DNA of 64,000 nucleotides, from NCBI GenBank assembly GCA_964016885.1, contig OZ024740.1, positions 308,202,001-308,266,000 of the forward strand, in the 5' to 3' direction. The stretch's first letter is position 1; every line of letters starts with the position of its first letter. This document shows, in pieces, positions 58,752 through 59,583 of this stretch. The notes under the pieces are model-generated. The model was not told the origin of the DNA. It saw only the letters and a list, made by a program, of their open reading frames with translations, and ran no database searches. Source of the stretch: Eledone cirrhosa (Eukaryota). Position numbers and translations under genes: made by a program.

Positions 58752-59583
58752 GTATCCTTTTTTATCTTGAAAGAGGTGGAGGTGCAGCAAGTGTTTGCTC
58801 AGGTTTTTCAACAGTGTGTAGCTAGGGTTGACATTGTGTTTGACTTATGTATATGTTTAGAAAGTCAGTCTTTGAGACATCTATTTAGGATGTCTGAACT
58901 ACTTGACAGAATTTAACAACTGTTGTAAAATTATATATTTTATATTTTTGCCATCCTCATTGTTCACCTTTCTGGCTGATTTTAAGATTGAATACAGATA
59001 TGACTTTCTGTTATCCTCTCCATATTCCTAGTTCTTTAACTTATCATGCATCAGTTACAGCCTCCCTATACTGTTGCAACAGCAGTCAGTTATACCTAAT
59101 ATATGGTACTTATTTACAAACAGAATTTGTCAGCAGTACAATACAATGGTAATTAGATAATTTCAAAAATGTTTATCTGCCTTCTCCATCCAACCCATAT
59201 CAGGATAGAAAAATTGTTAAACTTTGATGAATATTTAATTAACCTTTTCATGACCATCTTTCCAGTGAAGTACAGTACTTAAATAATTTTTTTTAAATAA
59301 CAAAGTTCTTTGAGGATTCAGTGAAATAACTTTGTTTAATAATTGTTTCCACTTTTGGCACAAGGCCAGCAATCAACCAGTACATTACTGGTACTTTATT
59401 TTATCGACCCCGTAAGGATGAAAGGCAAAGTTAACCTCGACGGGATTTGAACTCAGACCGTAAAGGGACATAACTATGCTAAGTTGTTGTTTAGAACATA
59501 GAAGTTTCTTGCATAAAATAATTGTTTCTATTTTTGTGCCTTTAACTGTCATCTGTTGCACGCTCCTTAATCTGTGATCTCAG
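58752..59583 (+). other. U12-type (minor spliceosome) GT-AG intron
   Basis: 5'ss GTATCCTTT; branch site TCCTTAAT at 59564-59571, 13-14 nt from the CAG; no polypyrimidine tract. Confidence 0.88.
59340..59480 (-). mobile_element. Meta-like SINE inside the U12 intron
   Basis: CTGGTACTTTATTTTATCGACCCCGTAAGGATGAAAGGCAAAGTTAAC. Confidence 0.8.

What the first reader, a model, noticed from the sequence alone, without database searches (positions are those of the whole stretch)
58752..59583. STT3A carries a U12-type minor-spliceosome intron just before the catalytic SVSE exon
Seen: the donor is GTATCCTTTTTT; a TCCTTAAT branch site lies 13-14 nt from the CAG; there is no pyrimidine tract; the intron is phase 1; only this junction restores GKISPW. 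The other nine donors look U2-type. Established: RTATCCTT and TCCTTAAC within ~10-20 nt of the 3'ss define U12 introns, which are rare and often rate-limiting. Inference: N-glycosylation capacity in this animal may depend on the minor spliceosome, and orthologous introns elsewhere may have converted to U2 or shifted position.
Basis: partly seen in the sequence, partly recalled or inferred. Interest (0 to 1): 0.75.

Follow-up and report, generated by a model that had tools for sequence, protein, structure and literature searches.

The report
Ancient minor intron, shifted in vertebrates
The octopus gene for the core protein-glycosylation enzyme STT3A has one intron with the signals of the rare 'minor' splicing machine and is spliced exactly there; the same intron sits at the same base in worms and, by indirect evidence, in other molluscs and sponges, while sea squirts, moss animals and likely vertebrates have an ordinary intron one codon earlier, which makes it a test case for how minor introns are likely converted or moved.

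Summary
Intron 7 of octopus STT3A (58752-59583, 832 nt, phase 1) has donor GTATCCTTTTTT and branch site TCCTTAAT 13-14 nt from CAG. Contigs from 4 of 4 runs join 58751 to 59584. U11, U12, U4atac and U6atac genes are in the genome. The other 13 introns are U2-type. 'No pyrimidine tract' is overstated.

The main gain is comparative. Of 22 distinct orthologous introns read at both ends as DNA, 15 are U12 at the same base (Lys codon; 14 from one annelid-like group), 3 are U2 at that base (sponge-like) and 4 are U2 three bases upstream (Gly codon; bryozoan- and tunicate-like). Read-through peptides suggest U12 in sponges and molluscs and the Gly site in vertebrates (0 of 29 with the U12 signature). 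STT3A is absent from human/mouse minor-intron tables. The octopus STT3B paralog has a U2 intron at the Gly site.

Best reading: an ancient animal U12 intron, converted in place in some sponges and replaced one codon upstream at least twice. Whether by sliding or by loss plus gain is open. A rate-limiting role for N-glycosylation is untested. The scan had not noted this before.

The parts
39293..64000 (+). STT3A gene (oligosaccharyltransferase catalytic subunit); 11 coding exons in the window, 4 more in the next 6.4 kb (L006)
   Evidence: 707 aa, 699/707 identical to P0014; 1372 bits to human STT3A 6s7o_A against 950 to STT3B 6s7t_A
58595..58751 (+). exon 7 (157 nt), ends GGA A: the Gly codon plus the first base of the Lys codon
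58752..59583 (+). GT-AG U12-type intron, 832 nt, phase 1
58752..58763 (+). U12 5' splice site GTATCCTTTTTT; +4..+10 is complementary to the 5' end of the genome's own U11, +4..+12 to the A-run/AAGGA of its own U6atac
   Evidence: U11 duplex -7.7 kcal/mol, next best donor -5.0
58823..58825 (+). first in-frame stop if the intron is retained (24 codons into the intron, before SVSE and WWDYG)
59338..59536 (.). high-copy repeat (SINE-like, label recalled) inside the intron, flanked by a 20-nt direct repeat (59338-59357 / 59517-59536, 90% alike), likely a target-site duplication
   Evidence: (very high depth, loose ends)
59564..59571 (+). U12 branch site TCCTTAAT; pairs with GUAAGGA of the genome's own U12 with one bulged A and a terminal G-U
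   Evidence: U12 sequence
59581..59583 (+). 3' splice site CAG, the first AG after the branch site
59584..59736 (+). exon 8 (153 nt, phase 1 at both ends) with ISPW...SVSE; SVSE codons at 59661-59672
   Evidence: SVSE 348-351 and E351 described in passages of bioRxiv 10.64898/2026.09.03.749169

Best explanation
This is a GT-AG minor-class (U12-type) intron in octopus STT3A that is removed exactly at 58751/59584, likely by the U11/U12/U4atac/U6atac spliceosome, and it is likely an ancient intron of animal STT3A that other lineages have converted or replaced. Shown: signals, junction, snRNA genes, and the same position and class in annelid-like and one mollusc-like locus. Inferred mechanism: U11 and then U6atac pair with +4..+10 of the donor, U12 pairs with TCCTTAAT, and the first AG 13 nt downstream is used; failure would leave a stop before the SVSE and WWDYG motifs. 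Inferred history: U12 at the Lys codon was present in the ancestor of sponges and bilaterians. Some sponges turned it into U2 in place through degenerate donors. Chordates and bryozoans each ended up with a U2 intron 3 nt upstream in the Gly codon. I favour loss plus gain at a favourable exon site (about 0.5) slightly over a true slide during class conversion (about 0.35).
For: Signals and background. Junction in 4 of 4 runs, 2 studies. U12 128 bits, U6atac 93.6, U11 96.4, U4atac 81.3, all over cut-off. In 49 usable of 50 metagenome loci (28 distinct), donor and branch site covary fully: 15 of 15 distinct GTATCCTT introns have CTTRAC with its A 12-16 nt from the end, 0 of 7 U2-donor introns do, and 5 of 6 Lys-site introns without a visible donor have it. 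Trees put Lys-site U2 loci with Geodia (99), Gly-site loci with bryozoans (99) or Ciona (100), and Lys-site U12 loci with Helobdella (97) (quick tree). Of 73 donor read-through gene calls, 23 continue G-S-I-L (the translation of A|GTATCCTT), among them a UniRef Biomphalaria fragment and 11 rows of the Geodia-containing clade. P0019 (sponge clade) reads through the whole intron with GSIL at the start and SLT..E at the end. Vertebrate-like calls: 0 of 29 donors G-S-I and 14 of 14 acceptors GK. No STT3 row in the human/mouse tables.
Against: No minor-spliceosome knockdown, so dependence is inferred. The last base of the branch site is T, not C. Duplex energies do not single the intron out for the branch site (-8.1, intron 4 -10.9) or for U6atac (-7.2, intron 13 -7.5). 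14 of the 15 U12 orthologues come from one annelid-like group, so the Fisher value of 6e-6 overstates independence. U12 class in sponges and the Gly site in vertebrates rest on translated read-through, not DNA; 3 of 29 vertebrate-like donors continue with Ser and are ambiguous. The Gly site is shared with STT3B and apparently with a Closterium model (P0001), which fits a Gly-site ancestor. The metagenome pattern required the downstream intron, so lineages lacking it were not sampled as DNA.
Confidence: 0.8

Rival explanations
1. True sliding coupled to class conversion: when the U12 donor decays, a cryptic U2 donor inside the Gly codon (G|GT) and an acceptor 3 nt upstream take over, moving the same intron by one codon; this happened independently in chordates and bryozoans, and other offsets arose elsewhere.
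For: The same -3 offset occurs in two lineages that sit apart in the tree. All 18 distinct Lys-site introns with a visible donor have Gly as GGC or GGA, never GGT, which would create that cryptic donor (small, related sample). Read-throughs of one unnamed group suggest two more nearby positions, FQ|KVAPW (P0034) and FQ|VAPW (P0020, P0028, P0057, P0231). PMC2831892 passages describe cryptic U2 sites activated by U12 donor mutations.
Against: A 3-nt slide through a NAG-NAG acceptor would change Gly-Lys to Ala/Val-Glu in the intermediate (inference from the code). No relic U12 branch site in 0 of 4 Gly-site introns. GTATCT at +5 in L040 and L049 is explained by ordinary U2 consensus. Sliding is called at most very rare in PMC10639083.
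Confidence: 0.35
2. The Gly-site U2 intron is ancestral (older than the STT3A/STT3B duplication) and kept in chordates and bryozoans; the Lys-site U12 intron is a derived gain, a rare U2-to-U12 change.
For: Octopus STT3B has a U2 intron exactly at the Gly site; the Closterium model P0001 also reads in at the Gly codon. One U2-to-U12 case via cryptic sites is reported in PMC2831892, and PMC11347168 allows both directions.
Against: It needs U12 signals to arise at the same base separately in sponges and in molluscs/annelids, or both site pairs to coexist for a long time. Only 1 of 15 STT3B intron positions matches an STT3A position exactly, so the paralogs share little ancestral structure and a match may be parallel gain.
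Confidence: 0.15
3. The intron is a regulated, rate-limiting valve on N-glycosylation, or it guards the in-frame catalytic exon from being skipped because a U12 donor cannot join a U2 acceptor.
For: Retention would stop translation before SVSE. Exon 8 is 153 nt with phase 1 at both ends, so skipping would keep the frame; the Mya model P0282 lacks this exon. The U12 class is kept over a long time.
Against: No retention was measured. Sponges, tunicates, bryozoans and likely vertebrates do without U12 here. STT3B has no U12 donor. PMC7367187 and PMC10639083 passages argue against slow excision and for neutral processes.
Confidence: 0.15
4. The intron is spliced by the major spliceosome and the motifs are chance or vestigial.
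For: GT-AG ends; 12 of 17 pyrimidines near the acceptor.
Against: Full GTATCCTT with A at -1 and +5 C; joint rarity; covariation of donor and branch site across orthologues.
Confidence: 0.04

Closest known systems
GT-AG U12-type introns of animals (e.g. human/mouse ALG8, row seen in the PMC6717393 supplement)
   Same: Donor GTATCCTT, branch site near the acceptor, phase 1 (U12 introns avoid phase 0), an N-glycosylation gene
   Different: STT3A and STT3B are not in the human/mouse lists (0 hits in 8 files); the branch site ends in T
U12-to-U2 class conversion (Burge model as described in PMC2831892 and PMC7367187; passages)
   Same: U2 introns at the identical Lys-codon position in sponge-like loci L020, L049, L050/L053; degenerate read-through donors (SIH, SIP, SIR, SIC, SIQ, SIN) look like intermediates
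   Different: Those studies define conversion at the same position and phase; here the chordate, bryozoan and STT3B intron lies 3 nt upstream, which PMC10639083 says its pipeline would score as a loss
Drosophila URP (CG3294) twintron, U2-to-U12 gain via cryptic sites (PMC2831892 passages)
   Same: U12 and U2 splice sites close together at one gene position
   Different: No alternative U2 site is seen here: the Gly codon is GGA, and one junction only was seen in 4 runs
Near intron pairs / intron sliding (concept recalled; cited in PMC10639083 and PMC11347168 passages)
   Same: Orthologous introns a few bases apart
   Different: Here the pair also differs in spliceosome class, and the same offset recurs in separate lineages

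Membership tests
U12-type intron | 5' splice site RTATCCTT at +1..+8 | tested here: met
   GTATCCTTTTTT; 1 of 14 donors, 5 of 12,022 GT sites
U12-type intron | TCCTTRAC-like branch site about 10-20 nt from the 3' end | tested here: met
   TCCTTAAT, As at 14 and 13 nt; last base T instead of C
U12-type intron | No distinct polypyrimidine tract | tested here: inconclusive
   No T-run after the branch site, but 12 of 17 pyrimidines, within the 11-15 range of the U2 introns
U12-type intron | Excised at these ends in transcripts | tested here: met
   4 of 4 runs, contigs; RNA status is a guess for X2-X4 and not recorded for X8, but the contigs are spliced
U12-type intron | Genome encodes U11, U12, U4atac, U6atac | tested here: met
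U12-type intron | intronIC or PWM score outside the U2 distribution | not testable with these tools
   No matrices on hand; the snRNA duplex proxy singled out the donor with U11 only
U12-type intron | Splicing depends on the minor spliceosome | not testable with these tools
   needs knockdown or in vitro splicing
STT3A (versus STT3B) | Closest to STT3A, with SVSE and WWDYG motifs; a separate STT3B paralog | tested here: met
Twintron | Both U2 and U12 site pairs used at one position | tested here: not met
   One junction in 4 runs (contigs can hide rare forms); no GT at the Gly site
Intron sliding | Same intron moved, with an intermediate or intron sequence continuity | tested here: inconclusive
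   Offset shown; no relic branch site in 4 Gly-site introns; no intermediate found

The most novel reading that the evidence does not exclude
This site is a repeatable slide-and-switch hot spot: an ancestral animal U12 intron escaped the minor spliceosome several times by moving one codon upstream as a U2 intron (chordates, bryozoans), and by other small offsets in a further group. The human STT3A intron would then be a disguised former minor intron, and position-exact surveys would undercount U12-to-U2 conversion by scoring such cases as loss.
Probability: 0.3. Interest if true: 0.7.

Novelty: new member of a known kind. Interest (0 to 1): 0.42.

Why it matters
One more U12 intron is ordinary, and the large online catalogues that include Octopus species probably score it already. 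The value lies in the comparison. One short, invariant protein motif (G-K-I-S-P-W) gives an unambiguous alignment in which three intron states are seen as DNA: U12 in place, U2 in place, and U2 one codon upstream. That makes two open questions directly testable at one site: the direction of class conversion, and whether near-position introns arise by sliding or by loss plus gain. It also suggests that some minor introns 'absent' from vertebrates survive as shifted major introns. In practice, the intron appears to break gene models (a Biomphalaria fragment ends in the read-through GSILLY; a Mya model skips the SVSE exon).

Tried and rejected
A wide read-laying (54200-63200) was swamped by repeats and showed no exon joints; the narrow laying gave the junction. 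No run is on record as RNA, and all are contigs, so retention could not be measured; the lack of contigs on the intron side is not evidence. Pattern scans of viral and prokaryote collections found 0 loci. Duplex energies with own U12 and U6atac did not separate intron 7 from all U2 introns. A suspected U12 relic in L040 and L049 donors (GTATCT at +5) was dropped as ordinary U2 consensus. The first donor mapping mis-set several donors and was replaced. The careful tree did not finish; one search is the quick tree, with 8 of 37 rows under half filled, and only 15 of the 49 loci were put in it. The tree has only 52 columns. Human exon coordinates were not obtained (0 papers; exon counts only); my recollection of a human intron in the Gly-321 codon is not used as evidence. 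The other three RTATCCTT matches on the + strand of the window (10084, 13631, 33160) were viewed only as short context; no exon was evident from long ORFs. The scan's own notes had no look-alike and no note holding all the words.

Full report
1. Observation. The window holds the first 11 coding exons of STT3A on the + strand; four more lie in the next 6.4 kb. The spliced model has 707 aa without a stop and is 699 of 707 identical to the Octopus STT3A entry P0014. It scores 1372 bits against human STT3A and 950 against STT3B in the PDB. Intron 7 runs 58752-59583 (832 nt, phase 1 in the Lys codon of GKISPW), starts GTATCCTTTTTT, has TCCTTAAT at 59564-59571 and ends TCAG. It is the only one of 14 introns with GTATCC. 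GTATCCTT occurs at 5 of 12,022 GT sites, and TCCTTAAY precedes 3 of 5,913 YAG sites in 104 kb. The acceptor region has no T-run but an ordinary pyrimidine share (12 of 17; others 11-15), so 'no pyrimidine tract' is only partly right.

2. Splicing and machinery. Laid on 59520-59790, 4 of 4 runs (2 studies, 2 organism codes) gave one contig each that begins exactly at 59584 with a loose end matching the last 30 bases of exon 7, and ends at 59736 with the start of exon 9. These are contigs, so they show the junction but not retention. The genome carries U12 (128 bits), U11 (2 matches, 96 bits), U4atac (81 bits) and U6atac (15 matches, best 94 bits). The donor gives the best duplex with the genome's own U11 5' end (-7.7 against -5.0 or weaker for the 13 others). 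The U6atac and U12 duplex energies did not single it out. Read base by base, TCCTTAAT pairs with GUAAGGA of the own U12 with one bulged A. Retention would stop translation at 58823, before SVSE, which passages of bioRxiv 10.64898/2026.09.03.749169 place at human residues 348-351 in contact with the acceptor peptide.

3. Orthologues as DNA. A scan of metagenome contigs with a pattern for the end of exon 8 plus the next donor gave 50 loci; 49 had the acceptor, and they reduce to 28 distinct introns. At the Lys site, 15 distinct introns (29 loci) have GTATCCTT and all 15 have CTTRAC with its A 12-16 nt from the end; 6 more lack a visible donor, and 5 of them have the branch motif; 3 (4 loci) have U2 donors and no branch motif (51-128 nt). 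At the Gly site, 3 nt upstream, 4 distinct introns (9 loci) are U2 without the motif. A quick tree of 15 of these loci with 22 named proteins puts Lys-site U2 loci with the sponge Geodia (99), Gly-site loci with the bryozoans Watersipora and Bugula (99) or with Ciona (100), and six Lys-site U12 loci with Helobdella (97); L030 is unresolved there and nearest to bivalves on exon 7. 14 of the 15 U12 cases are one annelid-like group, so they are not independent.

4. Orthologues by read-through. Gene callers that ignore introns translate into them, which reveals the site: A|GTATCCTT reads G-S-I-L, a Lys-site acceptor reads E-I-S-P-W, and a Gly-site acceptor reads G-K after unrelated sequence. Of 73 donor read-throughs among the proteins are vertebrate-like (by likeness to the human chain): none reads G-S-I, 26 cannot be Lys-site and 3 with Ser are ambiguous. 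All 14 vertebrate-like acceptor read-throughs are GK. Of the other 44, 23 read SIL, 12 read SI plus another residue, 6 read SK/SE/ST and 3 are Gly-site. In a 52-column tree the clade with Geodia (support 91) holds 11 SIL, 10 degenerate SI-x and 7 U2 rows, a range from U12 to U2 at one base. P0019 in that clade spans the whole intron with GSIL and SLT..E. A UniRef Biomphalaria fragment ends GSILLY. This evidence is indirect: SIL fits GTATCCTT but does not prove it. Some genomic calls of cnidarian-like sequences have no intron here. One unnamed group suggests two more nearby phase-0 positions.

5. Paralog. Octopus STT3B (G000:C1, about 153.05-153.11 Mb) has 15 introns found, none with a U12 donor. 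One is at exactly the same position as an STT3A intron, and intron 9 is a U2 intron at the Gly site. A Closterium model also reads in at the Gly codon. This is the main evidence against an ancestral Lys-site U12 intron.

6. Reading. U12 class: about 0.95. History: both scenarios need repeated change. U12 first needs the Gly site to arise at least twice in STT3A (chordates, bryozoans). Gly first needs two long U12 signals to arise at the same base in sponges and in molluscs/annelids, which is less likely. I put U12-ancestral at about 0.8. How the intron reached the Gly site is open. Loss plus gain is helped by the site itself (CAG|G in the tunicate-like locus; 'proto-splice site' is a recalled label). 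A slide is helped by the repeated offset and by the absence of GGT at the Gly codon in 18 of 18 Lys-site introns, but it needs an intermediate with two changed residues. The idea of a rate-limiting valve is untested and weak.

7. Literature. Searches for STT3A with 'minor intron' (0 papers), with U12 and intron (2 unrelated listings), c.961 (0), splice site shift (0), and STT3 with intron position (1) found no report of this intron; some searches gave background listings. Seen: PMC6717393 supplements by term search (STT3 0 hits, ALG8 present); PMC11347168 supplement search and passages; PMC10639083 passages and supplement search; PMC7367187 passages and a very short supplement; PMC2831892 passages; PMC3291851 supplement search; PMC7050244 passages and supplement search, no U12 mention. 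The online intron databases could not be read. They include Octopus species and probably list the intron as a row, so 'not in print' here means these searches only.

8. Verdict. A real, spliced U12 intron: a new member of a known kind. Interest 0.42, carried by the comparative pattern. If slide-and-switch is true (0.3), interest would be about 0.7.

Noticed in passing
window 59338-59536: High-copy repeat inside the U12 intron with a 20-nt flanking direct repeat, ending 27 nt before the branch site.
   Followed up: partly
G000, 15 places on several contigs (best L002, L003): 15 U6atac-like matches over the cut-off against 1 U12, 1 U4atac and 2 U11: many U6atac copies or pseudogenes. The best copy has six As before GGAGA, complementary to the long T-run of this donor.
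   Followed up: no
window 48147-51399, minus strand (STT3A intron 3): LINE-like element with endonuclease- and reverse-transcriptase-like frames, broken by stops and frameshifts (labels from recognised motifs, not from a family scan); shorter pieces at 43213-44043, 52070-52513, 31381-32620, 19973-20811.
   Followed up: no
proteins P0274 (Biomphalaria) and P0282 (Mya): Public gene models broken at this intron: one ends in the intron read-through, the other skips the SVSE exon in frame.
   Followed up: partly
proteins P0020, P0028, P0034, P0057, P0231: Read-throughs suggest phase-0 introns just before and just after the Lys codon in one unnamed group, which would make four positions within 5 nt; no DNA seen.
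   Followed up: partly
STT3B, G000:C1 153.05-153.11 Mb (L068-L074): 6 of 15 STT3B introns lie 3-11 nt from an STT3A intron and only 1 is at the same base; not tested against chance.
   Followed up: partly
window 38698-39213: Tandem 30-nt-like repeat with open frames on both strands just upstream of the first coding exon.
   Followed up: no
window 39293-39307: P0014 starts MNRGNK while the window has an acceptor before RGNK, so a short upstream exon exists that I did not locate; other isoform entries are 6 aa shorter.
   Followed up: no
loci L012-L060, annelid-like group: The donor after exon 8 is often GTTG/GTCA/GTCG/GTCT/GTTA rather than GTRAG: unusually degenerate U2 donors right after the U12 intron.
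   Followed up: no
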